Source: Flaccisagitta enflata (lineage: Eukaryota). From it: a stretch of DNA of 64,000 bases. Positions within the stretch are counted from its first letter, which is position 1. Each line of letters starts with the position of its first letter. Location: positions 12,152,001-12,216,000 of the forward strand of contig OZ231126.1 in the NCBI GenBank assembly GCA_965153355.1, written 5' to 3'. The notes under the pieces were generated by a model. It was not told where the DNA came from. It made no database searches and was given only the letters and a program-made list of their open reading frames with translations. This document shows positions 18,015 to 47,080 of this stretch, in pieces. Position numbers and translations under genes: made by a program.

Positions 18015-19570
18015 CTTTATTGCTATCAAGACCTAATTTAAGGTAATTCAATCAAGACCTAAATTGTTTTTAGTTGCGGACACGCAACTCTGTAAGAGGC
18101 TTTGACCGTCTGTCCATCCATCTGATGGTCCGTTAGCATGAGTCAGAAAGTGGGCTTATGAGCAAATTTGAATACTTTGTGTGCATGTGACAGTGGGTAT
18201 GAAGGCTAATTTTAGGCCTGAAGGGGCTTATTTGAGCCTTGAAACAACTGATTTAAAGTCTGGGAGAGGACTGATGGACAAATGTGTTTTACAGAACTTT
18301 GTTCCCTTCAGGGCTGCTGCCCAAAAGTAAAAATTAGAAATAGTCCGCCCAAGCATTACCTATGACCACTGGCCAGTTTGTGCATGATGCTGGTTGATCA
18401 AGATGATGGTAGGGCAGTGCCGCAGTGGTAACGAAAGTTATGTTTTACTTTTGGCCAGAGAGACTATTTGAAGTCTGCTTTTTGGGCTCAATTGTTTGTC
18501 AGTTGCTCTCCTTGATCAACCTTTTCAGACCTCTAATCAGGCCTCTCAGGCCCAAAAGCAGTTCTCTCAGGCCATTTTTCAGTTCTCTCAGGCCTTAAAT
18601 CAGGCGTTTTAACCTCTGGACTGAAATCAAGCTTTTGAGGCCTCAATAAAGGTCTTTTTGCCCTCATATTTGCCCTGCCACGCCTAAAATAAACCTCGGA
18701 TTAGCGCTTATTAGCCTTAACTCGGGCCTCTTAGACTTGAATTGAACCCAAATGAGCAAAAACACGAGGCCTCTACTAAGACTCCATGGTCTGTTACCAG
18801 CTATATCATGCTTCAAATCAGCTTTAGACCCTCATCAGCCGTCTGAATCTGGATGAATAGATGTCCCGGTTCTACAGGACATTTTCGATTTCAAGCATTT
18901 CGTTGTAATAAACAATCATTGATCTCAGTCCAATTCGAAATAGGATCCGAGCAAGAACATGCAAACAGAGCTCTAATTATTTTTACGTGAATTTGGGAAG
19001 CCTGCACAGTTGATTCCCGGGTTTCCTTTGACGTAATTAAGTCAAGCCCAGTTTTCATTTTTCACAGGCCCTTATTAATAGTATCAATTGATTTGACACA
19101 TTTTTTGCGGTTTTTCTTGCTTTTCTGATTCAAGTGGTGAATTGCCTTTCTTTTTTTTTCAATTTCTTTATGTAACTACCCTCGAAAAAAATTGCGGTGT
19201 ATTTATCTCTTTCTGTATTGCGTTTCTTGATACGATACTAGTTTGGATCATTGGTTGGTCTATCCGTTCGTCCTCTTCTCTCAACTTTTTCACTGAAATG
19301 CGAATATATCTGACAGGAGAGTAAAGAGTCCCTTTAGATTGAGCTTAAGCGATCGAGAATCTGCTTGTTCGTCTGTCGGTGGTTCCTCGTCCCTCTTCAT
19401 TCGGCAGTTTCCAACAAAGACAGAAGAGATTGCATCGCTTCTTAACTTCCTGGATCTTGTTTTTCCCTTATTTACAATGTCGTGTTTTTCCACTGTCAAA
19501 AGAGGATAATCTATGATTTTCATGCAAATTCACTCCAGGAATTCTTTTCTTCTTTGGTTACTCATTCCAG

Positions 19571-19639
19571 GAAAACAGCCAAGTCCAGGAACAGCCGCCG
19601 AAACCACCTAGACTGCCTCTGAAAGAAGTCAATTCTTCG
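19571..19639 (+). CDS. sowah: sowah exon 6
   Basis: cattccag| and |gtaaat; ENSQVQEQPPKPPRLPLKEVNSS; phase 0-0. Confidence 0.75.
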
Positions 19640-19840: not shown

Positions 19841-19919
19841 AAACCGACTTTGGCGTCTCCTGAAGACATGAGTTTGGGATCGGAATCTGCGACAACAGGA
19901 AGCGCCGCCGATTTGGCAG
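19841..19919 (+). CDS. sowah: sowah exon 7
   Basis: tttgaatag| and g|gtgagt; KPTLASPEDMSLGSESATTGSAADLA; phase 0 to 1. Confidence 0.8.
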
Positions 19920-23630: not shown

Positions 23631-23702
23631 CTAGGCTCTTGTTGCTTTTTAATCTGTTGAATTGAATATCCGATTTTGATTAATTTGATTTGATCTCACC
23701 AG

Positions 23703-23857
23703 ATGTGACGCCTACGACCCCGGGAAGCATCGCGGGTGACGCTGAGGCAGCGGAGGAAAACTCCATAGTCAGCGTCAAAGAGAGAGCTCTAAAACTCAAC
23801 AAGATTCAATCTGAAAGTGAATTACAAAAGCAAATCTCGCCGCCCAGGAAAAAGACG
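23703..23857 (+). CDS. sowah: sowah exon 8
   Basis: ctcaccag| and |gtaaga; (D)VTPTTPGS...IVSVKERALKLNKIQSESELQKQISPPRKKT; phase 1 to 0. Confidence 0.85.
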
Positions 23858-24428: not shown

Positions 24429-24494
24429 GGTGACAGAACTAGCGCGATTGGTACGGAAGATGATGGGCACTCTACCACATCGGGATCGATTGAG
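24429..24494 (+). CDS. sowah: sowah exon 9
   Basis: ctctccag| and |gtgagt; GDRTSAIGTEDDGHSTTSGSIE; phase 0-0. Confidence 0.8.
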
Positions 24495-27930: not shown

Positions 27931-28032
27931 TTGACGAAAGAGCAACGGTCTTGGCTTGTTGTGGCAGCAACGTCAGACTATCATCCAATGGCTAAAATGT
28001 TGAACACCAGTCCATCACTGGCTAGAATGAAG
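27931..28032 (+). CDS. sowah: sowah exon 10 (start of ankyrin region)
   Basis: gttgttcag| and |gtaagt; LTKEQRSWLVVAATSDYHPMAKMLNTSPSLARMK resembles the SOWAH W+V.AA...L...P.LA..K segment; phase 0-0. Confidence 0.9.
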
Positions 28033-29419: not shown

Positions 29420-29431
29420 GACTTCATATCG
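29420..29431 (+). CDS. sowah: sowah 12-nt microexon (DFIS)
   Basis: Long pyrimidine tract, ttttgcag|GACTTCATATCG|gtgagt; supplies the DFIS of the SOWAH KDFISG(F/Y)TALHW motif. Confidence 0.88.
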
Positions 29432-29858
29432 GTGAGTACAATCCAAACCAAACATTTCTCCTTATTTCAATTTACATTTTCATTTCTTAGCTTAGCTTGT
29501 TTTCTGCTTTGAATTCAGACATTTTCGACATGTTTTTATCATATTTACTCCAAAAGAATTCCTAACGGAATTATGCAAATATACCTCTTTCTTTGAGGCT
29601 ACTCCTGAAATAGGAAATGGAAGTTGTGCTGAGGTTTTGGTTTCCCCGATTGTTTCCATCTTTTTGTCACGAATAAAGGTATCTCCTGTCCCTCCTCCAA
29701 TTGTCTTATCCATCTATTCTTGTTATCACGCCGATGACAAAACAGCTTGAGACCCTCATGCCCGCGTCAAAAAGGATCCAGCCTTCTGAAAACGCGGTCC
29801 TTCACCGCCCTCCCCTTTCTCTGTGTTACTGTGCCTCTGTTTAACATAGACTCGCCTC

Positions 29859-29908
<50 letters not shown>

Positions 29909-30000
29909 GTCATTGCTTTTGTTGCTATCCCTCCCCTTTGTTCCGGTCTTTTGGCCGGATCATCACCGGAAAATAGTCGCGGCAGTAAAAAAGACGATGA

Positions 30001-30084
<84 letters not shown>

Positions 30085-30659
30085 AGAGAAAAAGAAAGAA
30101 AGAAGATGAAAAACAAAGGCAGGTTTTGGGAGAGATTCTCGCCTGAAAAATTCCTCCAGCTTTTGTTAGGGAAAATGAGCTCTGAAAAGCGGGATAGAAT
30201 CAGAAAGAAAGACTATAAGAGAAGAAAGAGAAAAACACAAAAAGAGACTCAAAGTTCTTTGAAAAAAAATTGAATTTTTCGCTCATCCCTCAATTTCACT
30301 CTTCAACTCCTACTCCACTCTCCCCCCCCCTTTATTCTCACCCCTTTCTACCACTCCTCTATCTAGTTCACTTTCTCCCCTCCACTGTGCTCTCATCATT
30401 TCTAGTTCTACCTCTCTTCCTATCTTTTTCTTTGCCCTTTTCTTTGTCTTACCCAGTAAGAAGCTGTACTCCCCTAAACTCATTGAACCCGTTACAAATC
30501 AAGCCTTTGTGGCAATCAACGTAAAAGAGCCATTTGGTGACTTTTTGGTTTCTTCAATTTGTATTATTTTAAACATCTCCCATATTGATAATAAAAACTT
30601 TTTCTCCCTTTTTTAACGCATCGTCGATATTTCAACTTGGAATTTACCTCGAATCTCAG

Positions 30660-30662
30660 GGC
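30660..30662 (+). CDS. sowah: sowah 3-nt microexon (GGC, Gly)
   Basis: gaatctcag|GGC|gtaagt with an upstream pyrimidine tract near 30598-30614; supplies the G missing after DFIS. Confidence 0.78.
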
Positions 30663-31097
30663 GTAAGTACCAAAATCAGTGTCATTGATAATTATGTTAT
30701 ATGGATGCATGGTTAGAAACTAGAATGTTGGGATCTATTTTTGTGTTTTTTTTTGTTAATCCGGCGTTTTCATGTGTGTGGTCGAATTTCTTTCTTCCAC
30801 TTCCTCTTTATATTATAATCCCCGATAAATACCCACTAACAAGTAACATTGTCCAATTTGACTTGTATGGTTGGGTAAAACAACTTAGGCGATGATGTTC
30901 TGTCGCTCCTTCATTCAAATGCTTGCTCAGAGATAGTAATCAAGATGTCGTACAATGGCCTATGAAGGGGAGGAAAGGCACGCGAGTGGAGGAGGAGGAG
31001 AAGGAGGAGGAGGAGAAAGTGTGATAAGATGAGATGAGAGGAACCACCGGAAATTAACTCCGGTCTTAAAGAGCCAGTCTCAAACGCTCTCAATCGA

Positions 31098-31140
<43 letters not shown>

Positions 31141-31496
31141 TTTCTCTTCTCTTGTTCACACAAAAACACACATTCTTAGGGGTTAATATTGAGTCAGTGA
31201 ACTCTTGTGCCAAGAATTGGGTGTGGAGAAAATGAGATAGAACCGGTGTTTTTCTTCTAGTGTGATGTTTTCCTTCACTTGGATAACATCTTAACTTTGT
31301 AGAACCGCGGTGCTGATATCCTTTGGAAATGGTTGGGTCTTAGGTATAAAATATCATTTATCTTTGCATGTTGTGTGGACTTTGTTGGTAAAAATGCGGC
31401 ATTGTGTGCAAGATTTGAGAGTAAGCAAAGCTATTGAATTCAATGTTTTCTTTTCTTTCTTTTGGCCCATTTCACTTCATCATCTACGTCGAGCAG

Positions 31497-31499
31497 TAC
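31497..31499 (+). CDS. sowah: sowah 3-nt microexon (TAC, Tyr)
   Basis: gagcag|TAC|gtaagt with an upstream tract ttttcttttctttcttttgg at about 31446-31465; supplies the Y missing before TALHW. Confidence 0.78.
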
Positions 31500-32906
31500 G
31501 TAAGTACCTTTTCATTTTCTTAATTCTATTTCAACTATTCGATTTAGTAAGTTCGCCACTTTGAATTAATTTTGGATGCCATTATTAAATTTTGCATGCA
31601 AAAGTAATTGCATTAGTTTTGGGTATTGGTGTTGTATGTACATCCAAACAACATACTGATGCTGTGCGCAATTATGCCCCCTACAGAAATTTATGGCTAA
31701 AGGTTTCTCATGACTAATGTTAAAAAAAACACTGTTTTGACTAGCAAAACTAAGAACACAACTTAGTCACTTAGCTTAGTTTAAGGAACAACACTGGTTT
31801 TTTTCTGATTTTTTTTTTTGGTGTGTTTCAGTTTTGTGTTTCAGTTTGTTTGGGCTTTGTTTGAGTTTGTTAAGCCTCCGTAGACGCCGATTTGCGAGAC
31901 TATACCAAGTCTTACCTTTTGCTTAGTCAACGTGCTAAACCCACTCGTTCGGTGATTAGGTTGTCCCTTATTGACTAGTTTTTCAGCTATTTGATATAAT
32001 TTATTTTGAACTTGCAGCAGTTGAGGTCGTAAAATTGATTATCAAACTTGCTATTAATCAAGTAAAAATAGAATGGGGGGAGGGTATTTGTAGTTATAGA
32101 AAGAAAATTGATTTGAAAACATGTAGCTTATTTTTTTTCAAGATAGGTATTTCAATTTTGATTTAATATCCAGTAAGTTTTTTAAGTTCATGTATAGCAA
32201 TATTACTTTTGTATTAAGCAAAAACATCTGCCAATTGAACCATTTGGCAACAACCTACTTCAAGTACACCTACCCTTCGATTCTTCTCTCCCATTCTGCC
32301 GTCTTTGGCTTTTTCTCTGCCGTCGCCTAAGCGGAAAACGTCAGTCGATTTTCCCTTTGGCAATTGTTCTTCCTAATCTCATCCTCTGCCAATTCCATTC
32401 ACATAGACTTGCAGTATGTTGTTAAATGTGTTGCCGGGCGAATTCTTTTTTTTTTTACCTTACCCCTTCTCTCTCTGCTAGGAAGGAAAAGGTTGGATTC
32501 CTTTCTTCGTCTGTCTGTCTGTCTGTCTCTCTCTCTCTTCATTCTATATATCATCTTTGCCCCAGCATTTTCTGGCTTGTGGAGGGAATTATCAGTTAGA
32601 TGACGATGCACTTCCAACATCGGAAGAAACTGTTTGGTCTGGTTTTCATTTTCGCGGTTGGGAGGTAAATCATTCCACTGACTTGAGTTGGGTTTCACAT
32701 TAGTTGTAAATCGATATCAGACATGTTACAACTTACAACATGCTTTTGCACGAAGTTTTATTTTGTTCCCTTGGCCACGGTTCACGTGTTTGTTCATCAG
32801 TCCAGCATTTCAACTGATCATCTCTATGGCCATCCTATTCATCCACCTTCACATCTGTCCAATGCGTAAGTTGCCTGTGTCTCGTGGCCTTGCCATAAAA
32901 TCCGAT

Positions 32907-32952
32907 TGAATTTCAAATTCAAATTCAAATTCAAATTCAAACAGTTTATTTC
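32907..32952 (-). mobile_element. Probable 3' tail of a LINE-type retroelement
   Basis: Minus strand reads AATAAA-ctg-(TTTGAA)n, a poly(A) signal followed by a short tandem tail. No reverse transcriptase ORF is recognisable. Confidence 0.45.
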
Positions 32953-34823
32953 CCAACATGAACAGTGGTTAAGATTGATGAGTACAACGTTTTGTCGGGG
33001 AGGACTATGACTAAGCCACCAATGTCTAGGTCTAATTACGTTACAATTTTTCTTTTCCAAATTACCGACGGGCTTGCTCTGGCTAGCCCTCATATTACAA
33101 AATTTTCAATAATTGGTATTCTTTAAAAAAAAAGAAAATACAATCAATATACATAACAAAAACGTACAAATACGTTAGATTAAAGCACTAACAAGAAAAA
33201 GTCGAATAAATATTTATACAAGGATGGTATATGTTACCATGTAACAATAAAAAGTAATAAATACTGAGTTACGAGTATTGGAGATTCAGAAGAGAGTTGG
33301 TTGTTGCTTGTGGGATGTTGGTAATTGGATGTTACTTTTCTTTGAGTTTGTGGTGAAGCGATATCAGAGCCAGGTGTTCCTGAGGAGGAAAGATGGAAAA
33401 AGACCAGAAAAAGCACCCACAGGAAGATCCCCTACTTCAAGGGGGGGCAACAGTGCGCAGTAGTTATATATGATATGGTTTGATAAGTCTCAATTCAGTT
33501 ACGCAGCTTTCTAGACAATCCATCTTGCCAATAGAGATTATAATTGCAAAATCAGCAAAGGAATAAAATCATAATGAGGATAGACACAGATACCAATTAA
33601 TATTTGAGTCACATGAAGATCAACAACACACTTTTCTGTTACTGTACCGTTTAAATGATGAGCTGCTAGGGACGCTGTTTGAAAAAACAAACAGGTATAG
33701 CAGGGAATAGTCCGTCCTATTCAGGACACCCACTTGAGTTTACTTTTACTTGGACAAATTGAGTTTCATAATATGACAAGAGGGCTTATAGTTTGACAGG
33801 ACATGGCCCGTGAGGACCAGGAACTGTCGGGGTGCCATCAGGATGCAAGCATCCAGATAGCTAGAATATCAGAAAATGTCAGTTTTAACGAGCTTATTGT
33901 GAGTAGGAATTAGAAAGAAAAAAAATTTTGGCCTATTTATACCTAACAAAACCTAGCCTAGCAAGACCCTAACCTAACCCACATGTGTCTGACAGCCAAT
34001 CCGGGGTGAGAACGACAGCACAGTGGGCCCCTCTGCAGCTTTGCTATGCTCACATGTGCACAATACAAGAACAAACAAGTAGGAAATCTTCTGTGGAGGG
34101 ATTTAAATGAGAAATTCAACATTTGGCGGTTGTTAAATTCTGTCGCTGCCGGTCGCACGATCTCTTCCAAACCGAAATTTCGCCTCCTTTGACACAAGCA
34201 ACGCGACCTCAATCTGCACGCTACCTGTAGCAACGCTATCTCGGTCGGCACGCCACCTCAAGCTACGCAGCTTGCAGTCTGCACACCACTTGTAGCAACG
34301 CCGTCTATTGCAGGGTCTTCACAAGCCAAATTCTATGCCTCCACTCCACCCCATCGTCTTTACATCGCTTGTACCTTCCTTCATCCCTTTTACTTCTCAT
34401 CTTAGTAAGCCTGTCTCATCTGTCTATTTTCCAACGTCTTCAATCAATTAGCATTCCACTTGTACAATTATCTCAATCAAATTTTCGAATTCCTCTCGAC
34501 GCGCCGAGAGTGTTGGCAATGCACAACCGCTACCACCGACCCACCAGTGGTATTCACCACCACCCATACACCACTTGCTCACACATTCTGTTGCAAGTCG
34601 ATCCATACCTTCCATTTTATTTTTCCGACGTTCATCCACCGTCACCGCGTCCTGCCTGTGCGGCCGATTGCTGCCGATTGCCGATTGCCGCCGCCGGCGC
34701 TGAAGCCCAACGCCATCCGGCCTTTCCGCTCGTTTTAATTCTGATTCGCGATAAATCCTTCCTAAGCTACCCTCGATTGTCCATATTCTGCATGAGACTT
34801 TGATATCGCCTTTTCCTTCATAA

Positions 34824-34854
<31 letters not shown>

Positions 34855-35028
34855 GTGTCCGGGCGGACGGCGTTGGTTTTCCACGACGTCGCCGTCAAAC
34901 TCCTCCTCTTCCTCATCTTCCTCCTCATTCTGCGCCGTCAAAGTCACGTGCGTATGTCCAAACAAAGACCACAGAAAACCGATGAAGAAATTGGCATGGA
35001 AAATAGAGGAGCCATGAAAGAGGAAAAA

Positions 35029-35755
35029 CAGGTCGCCCAAGGGCAATATGTGGTCAGCGATACCCGTTGCCCTGCTTTGCATGATTGTGAATTTGTGTGA
35101 GGGGAAGCAGGGCAGCGGCCCCGAAGGGGACGAAGTCCTGTAGAACACAGGGGGACTTTCGTTCGTCCTGCCTGACAACATTGATGAGATGCTATAGTGC
35201 ACTGATTTAAAAAAAAAAAGAAAGGCTTTCCCAGCTTATATGGCAATCAGGTCTGATTTGAAGCCTGACAGCGCTACTTTGAGGCCTGTGAGCCCTAATT
35301 TGAGGCCTGAGAGGGCTAATTTGTGGCCTGAGAGGGCTACTTTGAGGCCTGAGAGGGCTAATTTGAGGCCTGAGAGGCCAGGTTTAAGGCTTCACAGGCT
35401 GTATTTGAGACCTGAGAGACCAGATTTGAGGCCTGAGGGGCTGGATTTGAGGCCTGAGGGACCAGATTTGAGGCCTGAGGGGCCGGATTTGAGGCCTGAG
35501 GGGCCAGATTTGAGGCCTGAGAGGCCGGATTTGAGGCCTGAGAGGCCGGATTTGAGGCCTGAGAGGCTTGATTTGAGGCCTGAGAGGCCGGATTTGAGGC
35601 CTAAGAGGCCAGATTTGAGACCTGAGAGGCTGGATGTGGGGTCTGAGGGGCCTGATGGGGGGGGGACGAACGGACGAACGAACGGACGGACGGACGAACG
35701 AAAGTCCCCCTGTGTTCTACAGGACTTCGTCCCCTTCGGGGCCGCTGCCCAAAAA
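35029..35755 (-). mobile_element. Minisatellite-carrying element with 21-bp array
   Basis: Inverted repeats at about 35111-35168 and 35692-35750 flank (gaggcctgagaggccggattt)n; the tail matches the reverse complement of 6020-6102. Confidence 0.85.
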
Positions 35756-36924
35756 GGAAAGGTGCATTCTAGGTGGCAAAAGAAGGGGAAAAGATGGAAG
35801 GGTGCAGAAGGATGTAGGGGGGGGGGTTAGGGTTGAGGGTGAATTAAGGAGAGAGGGATAAGGAGGAATAGGAGGCGATTATGGAGGAAGGAGTGAGGAT
35901 TGACATGACATGGAGAAAAATTTACCATTTCGAAAAAAGAGGGCCGTTGAAATAACGAGTAACGCGGGGTTAAAATATCGCCGCGGACGGTTGGATAGGG
36001 GCACACAATCCTTATTCCTCACACACAAACACATGTTGGAGTGGAAATGTGCGTTTCTTCACTTTTCGACTCGGGCCAACAGACGGACAAAGTCTCTTGT
36101 AGAGTCGCGACTTACAGTAATTTGACCAAGGAATATGGGTACCATTGTATGACTTGTGCACCATTACATCAAAACAAAACAAAAAGAATAAGGACGAGCC
36201 TTGGGAGCTCTTACTGGTGTTTCATGCGCACCCCTCACAACTACCCTTAGAATTATCAAAAATCCATCTCAACCCTTACCAAAGGGCAACTCAATGGACA
36301 CAAATCAACAGCAAGAAAAACCTATGATTTTCAGCTTTTCATGAGATGTGCAAGTGACAAGAAAGAGTACCAGATATCTGTGTTGAACGCCACTTCATTC
36401 CTCACACCTATCTAATCTTCCCATTGTTAAATGCTCAAAACATCCATAACATTAAATTAAGATCTTTCCCACTAACTGAGAATAATCCACCAAGTCACTC
36501 TGAGTCAACCCCAAAATCTCAAATATAGTAATCATAGTCCAAATTTGAGAAAAACAAATTACCAAAGGATAAGTTGTGTGATGGCACCCAAATTCCATGC
36601 CCAAATTTCTTGGCCTTTTTATCAATAACGAGTCCATGATTGATTTCACAACATATTCATTAGAACATATTCATTAGAACATATTCATTAGAATCTGATT
36701 TAGATATTTAACAATTTGCCCTGTCGGTATACTATTAAAGCTTACATGATAACATATTGCTTACACAAAGTTGGAAGGATTTTGTCCCGCGGATCCTTGA
36801 AGCGCACTTCATCAGTGACGTGAACGCCATTTCAAACCCTTCATGAATCATGACCTTCTGCATCTCTAAAGGGACCAAGTCTGATATTCAGAAAGAAAGG
36901 AGAGGGAGAGGCAGACAAAGTTGT

Positions 36925-37023
<99 letters not shown>

Positions 37024-37122
37024 TTCATCTCATCTCCGCGCTCATTTGGGTTTGCATTAAAGGGGCATTCCACAATGAATTCATTCAAGTTGAAGAAGGC
37101 GTGAAAAAGGGCGGTGAGGGGG

Positions 37123-37159
<37 letters not shown>

Positions 37160-38110
37160 CGTCTTCTTCCTGTGTCCCACATCAGGTTTCACATCCTTTT
37201 TTTGTCTGTCCGTCTCTCACATCCAGCTGAAGGTGAAGAAGAAATAAAAGGGGGGTTTGTTGAATCGTGGTGACAAGGGGAATAGAGAGACCACAAGTTT
37301 TGACACGAACAAAGCCTGTCTAACAGCCGTTGCAACATGATCAATGCACCTTAATTCCAATGGCAAATAAACTGGTGACGATGGATGGAAAGAAGGAGAT
37401 CTTTGGTTGGGATTAAACGTGTTATCCTCTCGGGTCACCAATGGGCATGAACCCTCCAAAACGAAAGCGCCTTTTTTCCTCTCCATTTTCTATTTGTTCT
37501 TTATGGGAATGAAAATAATATAAGGGTAAAAAGGATTAATATATCCGTTCTCTGCTGGCTATGACTCTTTTAAACTTATAGGTTATTAGACTGGAAATTG
37601 TGTATTGCGGACTCTACACCTTGCCGTGTTGGTCGGTCGGTCCATTACAATCCTGAATTGGGAGCGTTTTTTGCATAACTGCCCCTGCCCATCCGACCGC
37701 CATTGTGGTGCCGTGTTTTCGATTTTTTTTAGTTGCTGTCTCTCTTTATCCTCCCATCCGTCATAACTTCCGATGGTGTTTCTGTTACTGTTAGCCATCT
37801 GAAATGCGTGTGTCCAAAAGTGTGAGAATGTATTTTATGCCACTGTCGGTGACGTCATTGTAATCCCACGTAACATGTTTCAAAGACTATGTACATGTTT
37901 TTGACCTTGACAACAACATAGATGTCGTAGATTGCCCCCTTGGTTACACACGAAACCTGATAATGATTGACATTGATTTGATGTTTTATTGTTTATATAT
38001 TCAAGAAGAAAAGAACCCCATTTTAGTCAGTTTAAATGATGGATGGTTAGAATCCTTTTTGTAGGCAACTTTAGCTTTACAAGAACGGATATTTTTTGCT
38101 CACCCGCCCC

Positions 38111-39898
38111 CGACACGCATCCCAGGAACAAACCCTTGGTGGAAAAAAAAGGCCAAGTGTTGTGAACGCTTTAGGCATGTTGTTCATTGTATTAGGTATA
38201 AATAAAGCCAAAAATAAAATAAATTGGCTTGGAAATATGGCATTTGTAGCTTAATAACCGCAAAAATAAACTGTTTTTAAGTATTTTTTAAGTAAAAATA
38301 GTTGAACAGTGTTGCAATAGCTGCTGTAATAATGTTTTTACCCCTTCCAACTAGTTCAAAGGCATCTTTTACAAACTGAAGCAAAAAAAAACTACCAAAA
38401 AAAAAAAAAACAACTAAATACAGGCCTTTTTAGCATTTTTTTTTTTGTTATTTTGAAGCCCTGATTTACATTCTGTCTCTTTAATCTATTTGTCAGATAT
38501 TCAAATATGAGTATTTTTACTGTTATTATACATTTTTTGTTTTTTAGATGCGTCCTCGCATCTCTATAAGAGGGTATGTCCCTTGGTAGGTAGGTCTGAA
38601 TGTCTGTATGAAATAGGAAAATTTCAAAACGCTATTTTCCAGGTTTTCTCTTCATTTCTCTTCATGTATCTTCTTGTCTCTTATATTTCTTTTGTCTCTT
38701 TCATCTCTTTTGCCTCTTTTGTCTCTTTTGTCTCTTTTGTCTCTTTTGTCTCCTATATGTCTCTTATGTCTCCTATATGTCTCTTATATCTCTTGTATCT
38801 CCTATTTTTCTTATGAATCTTAGGTCTCTTATGTCTCCTAAGTCTCTTATGTCTCTTATGTATCTTTGTCTCTTTTGTCTCCTATATATCTCCTTTATGT
38901 CTCTTAAGTCTCCTATATGTCTCTTATGTCTCTTATATCTCTTATATCTCTTATATCTCTTATATCTCTTAGGTCTCTTAGGTCTCTTAGGTCTCTTAGG
39001 TCTCTTAGGTCTCTTAGGTCTCTTATGTCTCTTATGTCTCTTATGTCTTTTATGTCTCTCATGTCTCTTATGTCTCTTCATGTCTCTATATGTCTCTTAT
39101 GTCTCCTCATGTTTCCTCATGTTTCCTCATGTCTCTTCATGTCTCTCCATATCTGTCCATGTCTCTCCAAGTCTCTTCATGTCTATTCGTGAGGATTAGG
39201 TGGGGGGTGTGGGGAGGCGTGGGGAGGGGTAGGAGGCGTGGGGAGGCGTGGGGAGGCGTGGGGAGGGGTGAGGGAGGGAGGAGGTGGAGAGGTGGGGAGG
39301 GGGGGAGGGGAGAGGGGGTGGGGAGGTGGGGAGGGGTGAGGGGGGGAGGCATGGGGAGAGGGGAGAGAGGAATCAGTTTATATTTTACTCTTTATCTCTG
39401 AATCTTTATATTTCCATATCATTATATCCTAATATCTGTATATCCTAATAATTTGTATGATAATATCTTACGTCTAAAGAGGACGCATCTATTGGACATC
39501 TCTTGGCCTTGTTTTTATATTTTTTAGAAATAGTATTTGTGATTTTCTGCTAAAAAACCTTTTTAGCTGTTTTTTAGCTTTTCTTTTTTTGCTTATTGGG
39601 TTGATATCCCTCAAAACTAGTCTTATAGGGAAAAATCATCTTTACAGCAATGATATCCACACTGCACAGTAGTTTTCTATAGTTTTTGAAAGTGTAACTA
39701 TCTTATTTAGCATGAAAAATGCTTAAAAATGCATTATTTTGGCTATTATTAAGCTATAAATACTATATTTCCAAGCCAATTTTTTTTATTTTTGGCTTTT
39801 ATTGTACCTAATACATTGAACAACATGCCTAGCAGGTTCACAATGCTTAGCCTTTGTTTACCACCTAGGGTTTGTTCCTGGGATGTAATGCGTGCCGA
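38111..39898. mobile_element. Long-TIR foldback element with nested HINE-like element (38545-39512) carrying 9-bp (tgtctctta)n and G-rich arrays
   Basis: Arms catcccaggaacaaaccc...ttggcttggaaata and tatttccaagccaa...gggtttgttcctgggatg; the nested element starts ttagatgcgtcctcgcatct (as at 12310) and ends gaggacgcatct...ggccttgttt. Confidence 0.75.
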
Positions 39899-40969
39899 CT
39901 GGAGTCACTTATCACAGACACGGAGACACCTGAAACTGATGAAAAGTAAAATTGGTTTAAAAATGACTTAGATAAAAGGTTAAGATGAAAAAAAATCATT
40001 CAACATTGAGACTCTCACGCTTTAACTAAGTGACGTTTTTGAGAAAATGGAAAAAAATCGAATTGACACTACGAGTTTTTCTCAGGTCTACCAAGAGTGA
40101 CGACGAAGACGATGACGATGACGACGACGGGGAAATGTCAAGCCAAAGAATTTCGGGGGATAAGGAATGATTTTCCCGCCGCCTTTTGCGTCTTTTTCCT
40201 TTCTTTTTGTCTCTTGTTTAAATGAAAATGAGCTCAAAACTTCTTTTTTTCTACGCCAAAGTGGGGAAGGTGAGAAAAAGTGAAGAAATGAGACTATCAT
40301 TCCTTACCTTTTTATCCTTTCTTTGTGCAAATGTGCCTTTTCTTTCGTCCTATTTTGGGAGGGAAAATTGCGCGACTAAATCGCTTTTAAAGGATAAATT
40401 TTCTCTGTTTGTCACATGGGCGATTTAGGGTTATCTATGCTAAAGACAGAAAACGGTGATGTAGTCCGCTGTATCGTTGCTCTTATACAAATACTCTTAG
40501 CATTAAATTCTTCAAAGCACTGAATGATGTATACCTTGTATGGTTTTTTCTCATGAACTTGGTAAATGAAAGTAAATGTTCAACAGAAAAGTAATTTTTC
40601 TGTCTCCACTTCTTCGACACTTTGTTGGGACTTAAACCAATTTGCATGCTACTTTCCTTTTTCACGCTTCCAATGATCGGGAAAAATTGCTTCCATTTTC
40701 CTTTTACATATGCGCATTGGGACACATTTGACTGTACACATCAACTTTTGAAGTTTTTTTCTAAAATTTTGATCGTATGAAAAACTAGCACATTAGTTTC
40801 AGCATGACAAATTCATCAGTTGCCCATATAGTGATTCAAGGCAATATTGCATTATTTCATTTTTAACACTTTCCTTAGACTATTATTCAATTTGTAGTGC
40901 AACTTTGTCTATTGTTTTATGATAAACTAAAAATAACTTTTTATAGGTGAAGTGCAGGCGTTCATAAAG

Positions 40970-41232
40970 TTGATTATTCCCCCCCCTGGTGGGGGGAATA
41001 GAATTAAAGGGTGAGAAAAAAGAAAAAACAAAGGTTTAGAAGATTTTACAGTTTGGCAGTTCCAATACTTACAGCCTTAGTACAACACTATTTTACGCTA
41101 TTCTGACTATAATCATGCTATATTTATACTCTATGGGGTAGAAAATCAAACAATTTTTTAACCGGGTGGGGAATGAAATCAAAGACAAGGGGTAAAGGAA
41201 AGAAATCAAAAGCCGCTCAACTGTATACACCC
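40970..41232 (+). mobile_element. Short interspersed element, second copy at about 47320-47610
   Basis: Both start with a hairpin ccccctggtggggggg and share ggcagt.ccaa.t...ggggaggaaaatca...tataca.ccct. Confidence 0.6.
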
Positions 41233-42310
41233 TTGATCAAAAATTTTACTACAGTGTCACTTAGCCATTCAATAATCTTCCCACTGCTCAAGGTTAGATT
41301 ATCCCACAGTGAGACTTTGCCAATTGTTCCATAGCCAAACTCCCGGATCAAAGTTCGAGTCTTGAGATTGAAAAGCCGAGTTAAAAATGGTTTTTCTCTC
41401 TCAACTTTCCTTTTGTTGTCGCGAGAAATTCTTTGGCATCTTTTCTCATTTGTCAACGGCTTTCTTTTTTGGGGGAGGAGGTGTATGCCGGAGGGGAATG
41501 TGGGAGTGTGCCAGGAGGGAATGTGGGAGTATGCCAGTTGGGAATATGGAAGTATTGTGGATGTATGATAGTGGGGAATGTAGGGGTATGTCAAGAGGTA
41601 ATGTGGGGGTATGCAAGGTTGGAATGAAGGTGTAAGCCAGGAGGTGATAAGGGGGTAGGCCCGGAGGGAATGTGGGGGGGGGAGGCTATGCCAGGAATGA
41701 ATGAGCTACTGGGGCTATCAGGCGGAGAGGACTGATGGGTACCGCAATGATTTTTCTTACTTGATAATTAAGTTAATTCTCTTTCCTATGAAAAGCCAAA
41801 TTGATAAGGGTGGAGTGGAATTGAAGTGGGACGGAAAATTTAATTTGTTTGTTAAAAACATGTACACAAATCTGACATTTAGTTCCTTAATGCGTTTGTT
41901 TCCAATTTCATATTTTCATATTTTCTTTCCATACCTTTTCGAATGCAAGGAAAACGTTGAAATTTCTTATACAGTGAGAGAAAGGAAACTTTTTTTTCTT
42001 TTTGCCGCCTGAAGTAATATTCGATCTCTGCATACAGCCTGAGAGAGAAAGCTAAAAAAAATTATATTGAGGCTGGGCCAAGAAAGCTCGGGCAAATTAG
42101 GATACATCATTTTGTAGTTGTGCCGACTTGTTATTCTACCAAATGGAAATTGATATCTCGTTGCATAAACAAGTTATGACGGGTTGTTATGCTCCAGAGG
42201 ACGGACCTTCCTTTCTTCTGAGAATTGAGCTCGACTCCGATGTTGTTTCAGACTTTCTCCGGTGATGATATCACCGTTCTAGTTATTCTCAATATTCTTC
42301 ATGGCATACA

Positions 42311-42392
<82 letters not shown>

Positions 42393-43793
42393 CATGGAGA
42401 TGAACAGACGCATCGAACAAAAATCACGGACAGACCGATCGACGGACGGACCTAGGGACTTGCCCTCTGCATGAGTCGCTAAGCAAGCGATCAAAAACTG
42501 CAAGTCTTCCCTTGAACCATGTCAGACAATGGCTTTAAAGATAGTAAGCTATACCTCAGATCTATGTCCTGGTGGTCTGATTCCTTCCTTCTTTTGATAA
42601 GAAAAGGAATATGTTAAATGAAGATGCCGCAAAAATTCTGGATGTGGGTAGTCTTAAAAGATGAATGAAATTAATGCGAAGACTCCAAGAGGGACACAAG
42701 GACGGATACACGGCTAACCAAGTCGCGTGTGGATGGGTAGGGGCAGTTATGCATAGTCATTGGGGCAGGGGCAGTGATGGAAATAACGCGCGTTAACACC
42801 AAACCGATGGACAGGACAACCGACCGACCGACAAACCGACCGACCAACATCGCGTGCACGCGACTGAAAACAAACAAGGCCGGACACACGGCTACCCCAG
42901 TCGCGTGCGGGTGGGCAGGGGCCATAATAAAGGTCACCATAACATTTGGGCAGGAGCAGCGAGGCCAAAAACCGTAAAAACCCAAAAAAAGTGAAGTGTG
43001 ACGGACGGACCAACGGACAGATGGACCAACGGACCGACAAAGCTGGGTGTAGAGTCGCGTAGCACGCGACTAAAAACTTTCGGTGCTTATTTTCGGCTAT
43101 TTTGGTCTGTATTATTGACTGCGGCTTCGGGTCGGGCTTCGGTGGCGGGTTTTATGAAATCGTAGATCCTTTGGAAAGCCGATCTCGGCCCTCTCTGGTC
43201 TCTAGAGGGCCTAGCAGAGAAACACATGTCCGACATATTCAGATAACAGTTAACAGATGTCGCTCCACTCACTCTCTGTCGGGAGGGAAAGAGTAATTTT
43301 ACAATTTATCTCATTCTACGTACATACGATATTGACTCAAATATTGACTCAGTTACTGGCTGTACTGTACGCTTGATAGCGTTAGGACTGGATTTGCGAA
43401 AAGCTTACTGTGATCGCTCACTTCTTAGGAAAATTTTGCATTGAGAAATGGAAAGTCAAAACATTTTAGGGTAACCAAGTGTTTCAGTGGTCAAGCGTTC
43501 ATGTGAGGACAATTGTTTCATTTAAAGATTTACGAAAAATAAGTAATCGAGTAGAAAGAGATGTGGTATTGTAGTATAATAACAGTAGCCACCAGCCACT
43601 ACTTCTCTTACATTGCTATCCCGGTCTCGCGCCTCTTGAAAAATGAAAACCACAATGAATTATATCGACCTCAGAGCTTAATCAGCAGTTACAAAATATG
43701 GATGAATGAATCATCTTTGAAAATCTATACAAAGTTACAAACACAATTTACACAATTAGTTAATCGATTGATCATCACTTTGAAATTGAAGAC

Positions 43794-44068
43794 TAATGGG
43801 ACGTTTCTAGTCAGAGACAATCGCGTTTTAAACAGGCCACTCGGTCGCTCGCTATGTCTGTTCGCTCGCACCACTCACACTGCTCATTTGCTCTGCAGCG
43901 CTCCGCTTTGTTATGTTCGCTTTGCTCGCTTGCTTCGTTCACAAGGGCGCTCACTCACTTGGCTCACTCCCTCGTGGGACAGTGAAATTGATAAATATTT
44001 GTTCACGCTGTAAACGCGTTCAATTGGAACATACGCGTTTTTCTTCTTCACTAGAAACACGACCTAAG
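43794..44068. mobile_element. Small MITE (possibly PIF/Harbinger-like) with internal gctc repeats
   Basis: Imperfect TIRs gggacgtttctagt and actagaaacacgacc, flanked by taa. Confidence 0.5.
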
Positions 44069-45349
44069 TTGAATGTTGGTTGTTTTACACGGCTGATTTT
44101 CCGTCTGTATCTGCCCGTCTGAACGCCCTTCAACTGAGTCCGTTGATATCTTTTGATCTCAGCCGGTTTGTTTGAATCAAGTAGACGTCCAATCACGTTT
44201 TAGTGAGAAGTGAAATGTCATATCAAGTTGAAGGATCGACAGTAAATTTGGTTGTTGATCTCGGATGAAAACTTTTTTTTTCTATGTACACTTATTTTTT
44301 ATTTCAACACCTACGAGTTTAGACAATCCCGCGAACCTTTTTTTGGGCATTTTTACGTGGTTTGATTTTCACGGAGTGACGAAATTATTCTTGAAATTTA
44401 AGTCGGTAGTATTGTATATATCAATGTCATGTATAGATCCTTGATTATCGTTATATTTCCACAATGATATTGTCCCTGCATCCCTGGGTTGAATCTCCGA
44501 CTTTGACAATCATACTAGAACAAAGCCGCATACACTCTCTTTCCCACCCCTCCCCCACCCCCATCGCAGACGGCTGGGCAGGAGAGGCATAGAGAGAAAA
44601 CGCTCCCAATTTGTTTTGGTTACGGACTGATAGATGGACGGACCGGTGGACGGACCGACCAACCAACCGACCGACACAGCAAATGCTGCGACTATAAACC
44701 GCGAGCCATACGTTACTTTACTTTGCGTTTACTTCCGCTCACTCCTTTCAGATTTAATATGGATTCACTAAAGTTTTTTCAGGGCAAAAGCGAATTTGAT
44801 AAAAGAGGCCGAGTCGAGTCTAGGATTTACTTCGTTTTTTTTTTCGAGGGGTGCGTAAGATCTGGAGATCATGACGTTTTCTCCGTTTGTGAGACTAACC
44901 TAAAAGCACGGGAAGGTGATATTTGATATGGTTTGGAAGGGAAGCGATATAAACAGCAATTTTTTTGAGAAAGAGGAAAAAAAGTTTTTTTTTTCCTGAT
45001 CTGGTTAGTGTTTTTGAGTTGTTCCTATCCTAACGTTAAAACTCCGATGGGGCTTCAATCAAGAGGGGAACAAACTTTTTTGGTTGGAAAAAAAATCAAA
45101 AACGAACAATTACAACATAGCTCGGTTATGTTTTTTGAAAATTGTTTTATAGAAAATACAAAAGATTACTAACCATTAGATCATAATCATGTTTTGAGGA
45201 TCGCGACTTTTTTCAAGGGTGAACTTTTTTTACATTCTTTCATTAGTTTACAAAGTAACCTCAATATTTTTGTGATAGTAGAATGGGGGTAGAGGTATGG
45301 GGACTATGTGGAGGTTGAGATATATAACATAAATTGCTACATGATTTGA

Positions 45350-45433
<84 letters not shown>

Positions 45434-46630
45434 TTTAACTAAACATCATCCATCTTCGTCTCCATTTTTGACAATGAGTGACATTTCCCTTTCGCTCATT
45501 TTTGCCTGCCTCCAATACCCCCATTACCCACTCCTCTTGAAAATACGCCAAAACGTCAGCGATCATCTCCCACAACCCTTTCAACCGGCCATTCTACTAA
45601 AATAGTAGTAAAAAGGTGGATAATGATTTTTTTTTCATTTGCGACTATGCAATGAGCCAGATTATGCTTGATCATGAACACACAATGGCATAGTCATGCC
45701 AACTGCGCTAACACTTCCGGCAGCTCTAGATATATTATCTATTTCCAAAATGACATAAGTGTTAAAATACGCAAAAGTTCTTTTGATTTATTAACATAAG
45801 AGAATATGTAGACGTAGACGTAGACGTAGATATTGATATGATGATTTAATGTTAAAATATTGACACACCGGAGTGTTAACTAACCTGGAGTTGGAGAAGG
45901 TTATATAAAATTTTTGATTAAGAGTATTTTTTAAAACAAAAAATTTATCTTATTTATCTTATTTATCTTATGATGCTTCCTTCCCTGTTATAATCGGTCA
46001 TATCGAAAGTTAGCTTCCTGTTTAGATGAGTCGGCATTCAAACTGACGAGAGGGATTGACAGGAGAGAATGTTCGTTATAGGTGACTTGGAGAGGAGGGG
46101 GATACTAGAGGGATACTAGGGGGAGATGGAAGGTTTGAGAGGGGATGCTAGGGGAGATTGTTTGAAAAAGGTGACTTGGTCACTAGAACTAGAAGGCGAG
46201 GAGGATGCTAGGAGAGATTCAATCGGAGGGAGGGGATGCAAGGGGGAGATTGAAGGTGTGGCGGGGGATACTAGGGGGAGATAATTTGAAATGGTTGTTG
46301 AGGCAATTGAGGGGTACGGGTAGGTTAAAGAAGTTTTTGTTGTTATTGTTGAGTAGAGCGTGTTATCTTGAATTTTGGTGTAGAGAGATGCGTAATCTGT
46401 GGTTGAATAATTTATACATGCGAGGAGGGGGTGAACAGAGCATCAGGGGTGTTGGTGGGGTGTAGAGGCGGCATTTTAGCGGCTTCACTTTGGGCCCAAA
46501 CTTGTGTCACGATCCGAACATGAGAACACGAACAACAACTGGTAAAGATTAGAGAAAGAAATTTAGTGCGGAGTGAAGGGATCGCTCGATCTTCCTTCTA
46601 TGCTTCAAACTTGACGGGCCGCTTGAGAGA

Positions 46631-46698
<68 letters not shown>

Positions 46699-46999
46699 TA
46701 GACAGACAGACGCAGAGACAGATAGATAGACAGACGCAGAGACAGATAGATAGACAGATAGATAGACAGACGCAGAGACCGACATACAGACACTGATGGG
46801 CCAAGACACTATAACAAGGTGGCATAGTGGATATTGTCACAGTATGCTAGGCTACTAGACTAACAAACATAAAAAGAGAAATAATGAGTTCAGACACACA
46901 CCGACCAACTGACTGACGGATGGACAGAAATAGAGACAACAATTAACAAGAGGAAAAAGGAGTAAAAAAAGATAGACAAAGTTGGAGAGAGAGAGCGAG

Positions 47000-47080
<81 letters not shown>

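What the first reader, a model, noticed from the sequence alone, without database searches (positions are those of the whole stretch)
29420..31505. Chain of 12-, 3- and 3-nt microexons spells DFIS-G-Y in the sowah ankyrin region
Seen: exon 27931-28032 ends ...LARMK and exon 58270-58356 starts TALHWAAK. Between them, in order, lie ttttgcag|GACTTCATATCG|gtgagt (29420-29431), ctcag|GGC|gtaagt (30660-30662) and gcag|TAC|gtaagt (31497-31499), each with an upstream pyrimidine tract and a consensus donor. Known: SOWAH proteins carry KDFxxG(F/Y)TALHWAAK, and the GxT residues belong to the ankyrin beta-hairpin. Inference: two single-codon exons each add one residue; all three are frame-preserving, so up to eight combinations could tune the hairpin. 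My manual scan of the intron found no other YAG-NNN-GTRAG site, and both encode exactly the missing residues. I recall microexons being reported in sowah of other bilaterians, so the novelty of this exact arrangement needs checking.
Basis: partly seen in the sequence, partly recalled or inferred. Interest (0 to 1): 0.92.

Follow-up and report, generated by a model that had tools for sequence, protein, structure and literature searches.

The report
Two one-codon exons in sowah
An animal gene for an ankyrin-repeat protein builds six amino acids of one protein loop from three tiny exons in a row, two of them only three bases long; relatives share part of this layout, and ordinary gene-finding software would probably miss it.

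Summary
No RNA of this species could be examined.

- **Gap to fill.** Exon A (27931-28032) and exon B (58270-58356) cannot be extended, because stop codons flank both.
- **Relatives' spliced sequences.** They place 5 or 6 residues between these exons. P0029 has DFIS-G-Y. P0028 has DFIS-Y, without the Gly. Two distant orthologs have DLTN-G-Y.
- **Uniqueness in the window.** It holds one AG|DFIS-coding 12-mer|GT (expected 0.0014 in the intron). The 30.2-kb intron has only two YAG-NNN-GTRAG sites, GGC then TAC, in the right order (chance about 8e-4).
- **Conservation.** Two genomic contigs of more distant animals (L001, L002) carry ttttgcag|15 nt NFMNG|gtgag, then cag|TTT|gtaagta. Their CAG-TTT-GTAAGTA stretch is identical at 13 of 13 positions, inside introns that otherwise align at 29-40%. 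The single-codon aromatic exon is therefore conserved. The separate Gly exon is particular to the window's lineage.
- **Gene.** It belongs to the SOWAH family. The Gly and Tyr fall on positions 2-3 of the Pfam ankyrin profile.
- **What stays open.** Combinatorial use is shown only by one Gly-less sequence from a relative.

Three-base exons and microexon chains are already known (RPS24, hth, Ncam). I rate this a new member of a known kind. The scan's earlier notes held nothing on sowah.

The parts
9523..9652 (+). First coding exon of the sowah gene (ATG at 9523; N-terminal winged-helix region). The 3' boundary is approximate.
   Evidence: tblastn places P0029 residues 1-43 on 9523-9651 at 81% identity. 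The donor AAAG|gtatca was read. P0029 carries a precomputed PF25877 hit, which names WHD_SOWAH.
19562..19639 (+). Internal sowah exon. The limits are those of the tblastn match, not mapped splice sites.
   Evidence: P0029 residues 240-265, 65% identity; donor TCG|gtaaat.
19844..19919 (+). Internal sowah exon (approximate limits).
   Evidence: P0029 residues 266-290, 84% identity; donor G|gtgagt.
23702..23857 (+). Internal sowah exon (..SVKERALKLNKIQSESEL..).
   Evidence: P0029 residues 291-342 at 83% identity and P0028 residues 2-47 at 96%; donor ACG|gtaaga.
24429..24494 (+). Internal sowah exon, 66 nt, phase 0 on both sides.
   Evidence: P0028 and P0029 match at 79% identity; ctccag|GGT...GAG|gtgagt.
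27931..28032 (+). Exon A, 102 nt, ending in LARMK. It encodes the helices of the first (capping) ankyrin repeat.
   Evidence: Sequence read. P0028 and P0029 match at 83-86%. Reading on past AAG|gtaagt meets a stop after 4 codons (ORF 27916-28044). The exon is also 102 nt in L001 and L002.
29420..29431 (+). Microexon 1, 12 nt, encoding DFIS.
   Evidence: ttttgcag|GACTTCATATCG|gtgagtac. It is the only AG|DFIS-coding 12-mer|GT in the window on either strand, against 0.0014 expected in the intron. P0028 and P0029 have DFIS at this point. The homologous microexon in L001 and L002 is 15 nt and shares the ttttgcag acceptor and gtgag donor.
30660..30662 (+). Microexon 2, 3 nt, GGC = Gly. This is position 2 of the Pfam ankyrin repeat profile.
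   Evidence: ctcag|GGC|gtaagtacc. It is one of only two YAG-NNN-GTRAG sites in the intron. It is the only one of 8 AG-GGN-GT sites with a full GTAAGT donor. A 130-nt AG-free zone lies upstream. Gly is present here in P0029, P0166 and P0178 and absent in P0028. The Pfam Ank match on P0029 402-432 covers profile positions 2-32.
31497..31499 (+). Microexon 3, 3 nt, TAC = Tyr.
   Evidence: gagcag|TAC|gtaagtacc. It is the second of the two YAG-NNN-GTRAG sites, and the only one of 2 AG-TAY-GT sites with a GTAAGT donor. Tyr is present in all 4 related proteins. A homologous single-codon exon, cag|TTT|gtaagta, is present in L001 (3648-3650) and L002 (10468-10470).
31500..58269 (+). Long intron, 26,770 nt, between the last microexon and exon B.
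   Evidence: Coordinates follow. The homologous intron in L002 is 7,006 nt (10471-17476).
58047..58272 (+). 49-nt tandem repeat (4.7 copies) that contains the acceptor of exon B and an exact upstream copy of it.
   Evidence: Tandem repeat search; sequence. CTTTTACTTTTAGAC occurs at 58111-58125 and 58257-58271, with a one-mismatch copy at 58208-58222.
58270..58356 (+). Exon B, 87 nt, TALHWAAKSGQIEVVKLVAGCGADVNAKS: the body of the second ankyrin repeat.
   Evidence: Sequence read. A TAG stop lies directly upstream in frame. P0029 matches at 86%, P0028 at 95% and P0011 at 94%.

Best explanation
The three sites are genuine coding exons of a SOWAH-family gene. A 12-nt exon (DFIS), a 3-nt exon (Gly) and a 3-nt exon (Tyr) are spliced in this order between exon A and exon B. 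Together they supply the loop that links the first and second ankyrin repeats, including the conserved Gly just before the T-x-L-H start of the repeat.

**Shown here.**
- Neither flanking exon can supply these residues.
- Spliced sequences of relatives contain exactly these residues.
- The sites are unique in the intron and lie in the right order.
- The single-codon aromatic exon and the upstream microexon are conserved, with their splice sites, in two other animal genomes. There the Gly codon is fused to the upstream microexon (15+3 nt, against 12+3+3 nt here).

**Inferred, not shown.**
- The splicing machinery cannot sit on both ends of a 3-nt exon at once, so the exons are probably added one at a time. 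In all three loci the microexons sit close behind exon A, with the long intron last. I therefore think each is ligated in turn onto the growing upstream exon, and each step presents a fresh, very strong donor.
- All four single-codon exons have GTAAGTA donors, a match to U1 at all seven intron positions.
- Three of the four have 96-130 nt AG-free zones upstream, which suggests distant branch points.
- The Gly exon, being separate in this lineage, can be skipped. That would give a loop one residue shorter, as in P0028 from a close relative.
For: **The gap must be filled.** Exon A read-through stops after 4 codons. Exon B is preceded in frame by TAG.

**Spliced sequences of relatives.**
- P0029 is 573 aa on an 1,867-nt contig, so it has no introns. 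It covers the window's exons in order and has 6 residues, DFISGY, between the exon A and exon B matches.
- P0028 is about 92% identical over the shared exons and runs across four window exons. It has 5 residues there, DFISY.
- The distant orthologs P0166 and P0178 have DLTNGY.

**Uniqueness and chance.**
- One DFIS-coding AG..GT 12-mer exists in 64 kb on both strands, against 0.0014 expected in the intron.
- The intron has 2 YAG-NNN-GTRAG sites, and both are the candidates.
- Gly then Tyr in order has a probability of about 8e-4.
- Of 8 AG-GGN-GT and 2 AG-TAY-GT sites, only these two have GTAAGT donors.

**Conservation.**
- L001 and L002 have exon A (102 nt), then ttttgcag|AATTTCATGAAYGGG|gtgag, then cag|TTT|gtaagta. 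L002 then has exon B (TPLHWAAKHG..).
- Between L001 and L002, the interiors of the two introns that flank the microexons align at 29% and 40% identical columns. CAG-TTT-GTAAGTA is identical at 13 of 13 positions.

**Signals.**
- Microexon donors are GTGAGTAC, GTAAGTAC and GTAAGTAC. AG-free zones are 130 nt (GGC), 107 nt and 96 nt (TTT in L002 and L001). Only 1.1% of AG-to-AG gaps in the window's intron reach 96 nt.

**Protein position.** The Pfam Ank match starts at the microexon Gly, profile position 2.
Against: - No RNA of this species was seen, so inclusion here rests on relatives.
- P0028 lacks the Gly. The Gly exon is therefore either not always used or absent in that relative.
- The pyrimidine tracts ahead of both 3-nt exons are only 12 of 20.
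- The TAC exon has a second AG three bases upstream (gagcag). Its AG-free zone is 3 nt, or 63 nt if that AG is ignored.
- At the bare AG/GT level other sites exist: 7 more GGN sites, 1 more TAY site, and one 6-nt GGGTAT site at 41584-41589.
- The order of splicing, the distant branch points and the effect of losing the Gly are inferences with no direct test.
- The AG-free-zone background was computed for the window only, not for L001 or L002.
- P0029 could in principle come from a processed retrogene rather than from RNA. Even then it would still record a spliced message.
Confidence: 0.86

Rival explanations
1. The chain is real but purely constitutive. All three microexons are always included in this species. 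The Gly-less sequence of the relative reflects loss of that exon in its lineage, or an assembly error. Nothing is 'tuned'.
For: Three of the 4 related proteins have both Gly and Tyr. In L001 and L002 the Gly is fused into the 15-nt exon and cannot be skipped on its own. All donors are near-perfect, which the introduction of the plant microexon paper gives as a trait of constitutive microexons in human brain (PMC8831610, passages). The conserved Gly of the ankyrin profile is unlikely to be freely dispensable.
Against: P0028 is a spliced sequence from a close relative, 86-96% identical over the shared exons. It lacks exactly the one residue that sits on its own exon here. A 3-base loss at precisely an exon unit is what skipping would give.
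Confidence: 0.4
2. The two 3-nt sites are chance look-alikes. The mRNA obtains Gly-Tyr from elsewhere in the intron, for example the 6-nt AG|GGGTAT|GT at 41584-41589 or exons with non-canonical splice sites.
For: About 1.2 YAG-NNN-GTRAG sites are expected by chance in this intron, so finding two is ordinary. One 6-nt Gly-Tyr candidate exists, against 0.13 expected. No RNA from this species was seen.
Against: Gly then Tyr in order at consensus sites has a probability of about 8e-4. The 41584 site has a purine-rich upstream region without a pyrimidine tract, and a GTCAAG donor. A 6-nt exon cannot give the Gly-less, Tyr-containing form of P0028. The homologous single-codon exon is conserved in L001 and L002.
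Confidence: 0.04
3. The sites serve mainly as stepping stones for removing a very long intron, in the manner of recursive splicing. The coded residues are a by-product.
For: Each site is a 3' splice site followed almost at once by a consensus GTAAGT. They lie at the head of a 30-kb interval. After each step a new donor is regenerated.
Against: They cluster within 3.5 kb of exon A and do not subdivide the remaining 26.8-kb intron. In L001 the intervening introns are only 182 and 185 nt, and in L002 122 and 216 nt, where no stepping stone is needed. The coded residues are the conserved ones of the family. This reading does not exclude the main one.
Confidence: 0.08

Closest known systems
RPS24 microexon chain (human): three consecutive microexons of 3, 18 and 22 bp between exons 4 and 6 (PMC12207440; abstract and passages read)
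   Same: Several microexons lie in a row, one of them only 3 bases long. Eight combinations are possible in theory, and far fewer are seen (three in that study).
   Different: In RPS24 the chain changes the C-terminal end of the protein and the 3' end of the message, and it has one 3-bp unit. Here all units are in frame inside a folded domain, and two successive units are single codons.
Drosophila homothorax 3-bp micro-exon 8 (PMC7392893; abstract and section 8 read)
   Same: It is a single-codon exon flanked by cag and gtaagt. It is conserved across species while its length varies between lineages (3, 6, 9 or 0 bp in that paper's table), much as 12+3+3 nt versus 15+3 nt here.
   Different: In hth the 3 bp are the first bases of an alternative 48-bp exon, so the two forms share an acceptor and differ in donor. 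Here each 3-nt exon stands alone between two introns, and two follow one another.
Classical 3-nt exons: mouse Ncam (1989) and Drosophila troponin T, which skips one Lys (both named in the introduction of PMC8042270; passages read). Also the cytohesin-1 3-nt microexon giving diglycine and triglycine variants (PMC6314551; search listing only).
   Same: One exon equals one amino acid, used or skipped to change a protein by a single residue. In cytohesin the residue is also a Gly in a binding loop.
   Different: These are single isolated units. None is reported in those texts as one of a pair of adjacent single-codon exons.
Plant ultra-short microexons and microexon clusters, including 1-nt exons (APC11, VPS55) and adjacent 5-nt + 12-nt exons in rice (PMC8831610; passages read)
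   Same: They are constitutive, deeply conserved ultra-short coding exons that annotation misses. Their donors are GTRAGT. They are lost or fused when a flanking intron is lost or retained, as with the 12+3 nt versus 15 nt difference here.
   Different: They are plant genes with short introns. No case of two successive 3-nt exons is described in the passages I read.
Recursive splicing at ratchet points in long introns (recalled from the literature; no paper read here)
   Same: An acceptor is followed directly by a consensus donor, so that splicing regenerates a 5' splice site and proceeds stepwise.
   Different: Ratchet points leave no bases in the mRNA. These sites each leave a codon.

Membership tests
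SOWAH (sosondowah) ankyrin-repeat protein family | N-terminal SOWAH winged-helix domain (Pfam PF25877, WHD_SOWAH) | tested here: met
   The ortholog P0029 carries a precomputed PF25877.1 hit. Its nearest Atlas clusters, scoring 0.97-0.98, are 100% PF25877 WHD_SOWAH plus Ank and are named SOWAH. The window's first exon is 81% identical to P0029 residues 1-43. The local Pfam copy returned no PF25877 hit for P0029, P0166, P0178 or the window's exon 1, so this rests on the precomputed hit and the Atlas.
SOWAH (sosondowah) ankyrin-repeat protein family | C-terminal block of ankyrin repeats with the motif K-D-[FL]-x-x-G-[YF]-T-x-L-H-W-A-A-K | tested here: met
   Pfam Ank and Ank_2 match P0029, P0166 and P0178. 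The motif is present in P0029, P0166 and P0178, present without the Gly in P0028, and reads N-F-M-N-G-F-T-P-L-H-W-A-A-K in the L002 exons. The window's exons give the same motif.
SOWAH (sosondowah) ankyrin-repeat protein family | Linkage to an Iroquois (Irx) homeobox gene, with Irx enhancers in sowah introns (Maeso et al. 2012, as cited in PMC12311624) | not tested
   I did not look for an Irx gene in the window. blastn of the window's long intron against L001 and L002 gave only a microsatellite-like match. The source paper is not held.
Coding microexons (ultra-short internal exons) | Length of 30 nt or less, flanked by canonical AG and GT, frame-preserving | tested here: met
   Lengths are 12, 3 and 3 nt, all phase 0, with CAG acceptors and GTRAGT donors.
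Coding microexons (ultra-short internal exons) | Present in mature mRNA | tested here: inconclusive
   This is met for relatives: P0029 and P0028 hold the coded residues at the joint. It could not be tested for this species.
Coding microexons (ultra-short internal exons) | Exon and splice sites conserved in other genomes while the flanking intron sequence diverges | tested here: met
   L001 and L002 hold the 15-nt and 3-nt exons. CAG-TTT-GTAAGTA is identical at 13 of 13 positions, against 29-40% in the intron interiors. The separate Gly exon was not found outside the window.
Neural, SRRM4/eMIC-dependent microexon programme | UGC motif close to the 3' splice site, and neuron-specific inclusion (features recalled, not taken from a paper read here) | tested here: inconclusive
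   The first microexon has TTTTGCAG in the window, L001 and L002. In the 45 bases shown upstream of each of the four single-codon exons, only L002's has TGC. Tissue specificity is not testable with these tools.
Recursive splice sites (ratchet points) | Acceptor directly abutting a donor, leaving no exon bases in the product | tested here: not met
   Three bases lie between AG and GT at both sites, and relatives' sequences keep the coded residues.

The most novel reading that the evidence does not exclude
Two successive single-codon exons form a regulated two-position length switch for the first ankyrin loop of Sowah. In the window's lineage an intron came to split a 15-nt microexon into 12+3 nt. 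This made the otherwise invariant ankyrin Gly optional, and tissues choose between loop lengths (with and without Gly, perhaps with and without Tyr) to change what the repeat stack binds. The steric problem of defining a 3-nt exon is solved by a fixed 5'-to-3' order of ligation onto exon A. That order is helped by distant branch points (AG-free zones of about 100 nt) and by donors with full seven-base intronic U1 pairing. If so, this would be the first described case of adjacent one-codon cassette exons.
Probability: 0.22. Interest if true: 0.7.

Novelty: new member of a known kind. Interest (0 to 1): 0.5.

Why it matters
**Annotation.** A gene model made without microexon-aware methods would drop 6 residues here, among them the conserved Gly of an ankyrin repeat, or would break the gene. 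The same layout is likely in sowah genes of many invertebrates.

**Splicing mechanism.** Two adjacent 3-nt exons are an extreme natural test of how very short exons are recognised. The conserved anatomy gives concrete predictions that nascent-RNA and lariat data can test. That anatomy is:
- the microexons cluster just behind the upstream exon;
- the long intron comes last;
- the donors are GTAAGTA;
- long AG-free zones lie upstream.

**Evolution.** The 12+3+3 nt versus 15+3 nt difference is a clean case of an intron appearing or disappearing inside a microexon. The Gly-less sequence of a relative hints that such a split can turn a fixed residue into an optional one.

None of this changes what is known in principle about microexons.

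Tried and rejected
- **RNA evidence, run search.** The look-up of sequencing runs with the 15088-16122 ORF listed no RNA holder. That ORF later proved absent from P0029, so it may have been a poor probe.
- **RNA evidence, reads.** Read laying of the one raw-read RNA run (X4) on window:27700-29860 laid 0 of 12.16 million reads read. This is no test of expression or splicing.
- **Homolog search with the big ORF.** Searching with the 344-aa ORF 15088-16122 found nothing.
- **Representative search.** The search with P0029 was swamped by giant multi-ankyrin proteins. Only 2 of the 150 listed rows (P0166, P0178) had the length and two-stretch match of true orthologs, and only those two were fetched.
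- **Cluster look-up.** The look-up of P0028, P0029, P0166 and P0178 found single-member clusters without names, so no isoform pairs.
- **Structure prediction.** The P0029 model had mean pLDDT 47.7, and about 50-51 in the two 10-residue blocks spanning residues 381-400. I did not use it to place the loop.
- **Own genome.** It is not held.
- **Conserved non-coding elements.** blastn of the window's intron against L001 and L002 gave one strong hit, in a GA microsatellite, and nothing else.
- **Six-nt Gly-Tyr exon at 41584-41589.** Rejected: it has no pyrimidine tract and a GTCAAG donor, and it cannot explain the Gly-less form.
- **Simulation.** A simulation of the chance expectation timed out. 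An analytic Markov calculation replaced it.
- **Papers.** No held paper contains sowah together with microexon or micro-exon. Maeso et al. 2012 is not held. Supplementary tables of microexon surveys are closed and could list sowah.
- **Earlier scan notes.** Nothing on sowah or this locus.
Full report
**Observation.**
- Exon A, 27931-28032: ttcag|TTG...AAG|gtaagt, ending in LARMK.
- 29420-29431: ttttgcag|GACTTCATATCG|gtgagt.
- 30660-30662: ctcag|GGC|gtaagt.
- 31497-31499: gagcag|TAC|gtaagt.
- Exon B, 58270-58356: ttttag|ACTGCG..., starting TALHWAAK.

Joined in a script, the five pieces give one open frame with K-DFIS-G-Y-TALHW at the joints. It has 5 AG-NNN-GTRAG and 82 AG-NNN-GT sites.

**The gene.** A start codon at 9523 opens an exon that is 81% identical to the first 43 residues of P0029. 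P0029 is a 573-residue protein that the exon A search found. It carries ankyrin repeats and a precomputed hit to PF25877. The Atlas names PF25877 as WHD_SOWAH, and P0029's nearest clusters there (0.97-0.98) are SOWAH clusters. The local Pfam copy returned only ankyrin families. tblastn lays P0029 on the window in order:
- 9523-9651;
- about 10750-10808;
- 19562-19639;
- 19844-19918;
- 23702-23857;
- 24429-24494;
- 27931-28032 (exon A);
- 58270-58356 (exon B).

The rest of the gene lies beyond base 64000. From 23857 onward every intron is phase 0.

**What must lie between exon A and exon B.** Reading on from exon A meets a stop after four codons. Exon B is preceded in frame by TAG. So neither exon can be extended.
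- P0029 sits on an 1,867-nt contig, which leaves no room for introns, so it records a spliced message. It has six residues, DFISGY, between its exon A and exon B matches.
- P0028 has 127 residues and is 86-96% identical to the window over the shared exons. It runs uninterrupted across four window exons and has five residues there, DFISY. In the alignment it has a one-column gap exactly at the Gly.
- Two distant orthologs from the representative search, P0166 and P0178, have DLTNGY.

These four are all the related proteins I could read. The representative search was otherwise swamped by giant ankyrin proteins.

**Chance and alternatives.** I used a first-order Markov model of the 30,237-nt intron.
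- An AG|DFIS-coding 12-mer|GT is expected 0.0014 times. One is present, and it is the only one on either strand of the window.
- Consensus single-codon sites are expected 1.21 times, so a count of two is ordinary.
- A Gly site is expected 0.071 times and a Tyr site 0.023 times. Both present and in order has a probability of about 8e-4.
- At the bare AG/GT level there are 8 GGN, 2 TAY and 5 TTY sites. Only the two candidates have a GTAAGT donor.
- One 6-nt AG|GGGTAT|GT site exists at 41584-41589. It has a purine-rich upstream region and a GTCAAG donor, and a 6-nt exon could not produce the Gly-less form.

**Conservation in other genomes.** An alignment of exon A sequences retrieved two genomic contigs from the metagenome collection, L001 and L002. 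Their exon A homologs are 60% and 59% identical to P0028's exon A region, by tblastn over 30 and 29 residues. L002 holds the sowah gene from its winged-helix exon to exon B (TPLHWAAKHG.., 17477-17566).
- In both loci exon A is again 102 nt.
- It is followed after 182 nt (L001) or 122 nt (L002) by ttttgcag|AATTTCATGAAYGGG|gtgag, which is 15 nt encoding NFMNG.
- After a further 185 nt (L001) or 216 nt (L002) comes cag|TTT|gtaagta, which is 3 nt encoding Phe.
- Between the two loci, the interiors of the two introns that flank the microexons align at only 29% and 40% identical columns. Exon A aligns at 76%. The 13 bases CAG-TTT-GTAAGTA are identical.

The single-codon exon for the aromatic residue is therefore old and under selection. 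The Gly is fused to the upstream microexon in that lineage and stands alone in the window's. With two lineages I cannot tell which state is ancestral. L002's intron holds one other consensus site, cag|AGA|gtgagc at 13591, which I take to be chance.

**How it probably works (inferred).**
- A 3-nt exon leaves no room for factors on its acceptor and its donor at the same time. This steric argument is stated in the introduction of PMC8831610 (passages).
- In all three loci the microexons lie close behind exon A and the long intron comes last: 26,770 nt here and 7,006 nt in L002.
- All four single-codon exons have GTAAGTA donors, a match to U1 at all seven intron positions. The window's other donors match at three to six of those seven positions, the 12-nt exon's and 19844-19919's at six only by the G wobble at +3.
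- Three of the four single-codon exons have AG-free zones of 130, 107 and 96 nt upstream. Only 1.1% of AG-to-AG gaps in the window's intron reach 96 nt.
- The TAC exon has a tandem gagcag acceptor, with 63 AG-free bases beyond it.
- My reading is stepwise ligation onto exon A. Each step presents a new strong donor, and distant branch points ease the crowding. None of this was tested.

**Place in the protein.** The Pfam Ank match on P0029 runs from residue 402, the microexon Gly, at profile position 2, to residue 432. Gly and Tyr are therefore the two residues just before the T-x-L-H that opens the repeat's first helix. DFIS completes the link from the capping repeat encoded by exon A. A structure model was too uncertain in this stretch to add anything.

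**RNA of this species.** The two attempts to find RNA of this species gave no usable data (details under Tried and rejected). Inclusion in this species is inferred from relatives.

**What is known.**
- Three-base exons have been known since Ncam (1989) and Drosophila troponin T (introduction of PMC8042270).
- The Drosophila hth 3-bp exon is flanked by cag and gtaagt and varies in length between insects (PMC7392893).
- Human RPS24 has a chain of 3-, 18- and 22-bp microexons, with three of eight possible forms seen (PMC12207440).
- Plants have 1-nt exons and adjacent 5+12-nt exons (PMC8831610).
- I found no held paper with sowah and microexon or micro-exon. Three searches for 3-nt or consecutive microexons turned up no case of two adjacent single-codon exons, judging by titles and abstract openings and by the passages I read in five of those papers.
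- Maeso et al. 2012 is not held. That paper, public gene models and closed supplements could already show this layout.

**Verdict.** The reading as a 12-3-3 chain of real exons is well supported by comparison, at a confidence of about 0.86. The idea of combinatorial tuning has one supporting datum, from a relative. It is a neat, extreme new member of a known class: useful for annotation and as a test case for short-exon recognition, but not a new principle.

Noticed in passing
window 58047-58272: A 49-nt tandem repeat (4.7 copies) ends inside the acceptor of exon B. The 15 bases around the real acceptor (58257-58271) recur exactly at 58111-58125 and with one mismatch at 58208-58222. A perfect decoy acceptor therefore sits 146 nt upstream. 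Read in frame from the decoy, the sequence runs into a stop before exon B (my reading; no translation call was made for it).
   Followed up: partly
window 15088-16122 (+): A 344-codon open frame, rich in Ser, Pro and Thr, lies inside the sowah gene on its strand. It is absent from the ortholog P0029, and a search for longer homologs found none. It could be a lineage-specific or alternative large exon, or not coding at all.
   Followed up: partly
window 30530-30659; L001 about 3552-3647; L002 about 10361-10467: AG-free zones of 130, 96 and 107 nt lie directly upstream of three of the four single-codon exons. Only 1.1% of AG-to-AG gaps in the window's intron are that long. This suggests distant branch points.
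   Followed up: partly
window 31491-31496: The TAC exon has a tandem acceptor, gagcag. Use of the upstream AG would add CAG (Gln). None of the four related proteins has a residue there.
   Followed up: no
window 29412-29419; L001 3440-3447; L002 10229-10236: The acceptor of the first microexon is TTTTGCAG in all three loci, so a TGC lies directly at the 3' splice site. As I recall, UGC near the acceptor marks SRRM4-dependent neural microexons. This is only a lead.
   Followed up: no
window 1-340, 3700-4550, 5260-6230, 34760-35830, 63391-63853: A dispersed family of about 20-nt tandem repeats (unit CCTCGAGGCCCAAATCCTAG at 63391-63853) gives long open frames such as ..PASRLKSQPRGSNPSLEAQI.. and ..RPERPDLRPE.. 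in both orientations. Beside several copies lies the same short conserved segment (..TNESPPVFYRTSSPSGPLP..). It looks like a repeat-bearing mobile element.
   Followed up: no
L002 13591-13593: A second consensus single-codon site, cagcag|AGA|gtgagc, lies in the L002 intron between the TTT exon and exon B. No related protein has an Arg there, so it is probably chance.
   Followed up: no
window 41217-41705 (-) and 41530-41620 (+): A stretch with repeated GGGGTATG-like units holds the only 6-nt Gly-Tyr AG/GT site of the intron, and a 162-codon frame on the minus strand. It is probably a repeat, not an exon.
   Followed up: partly
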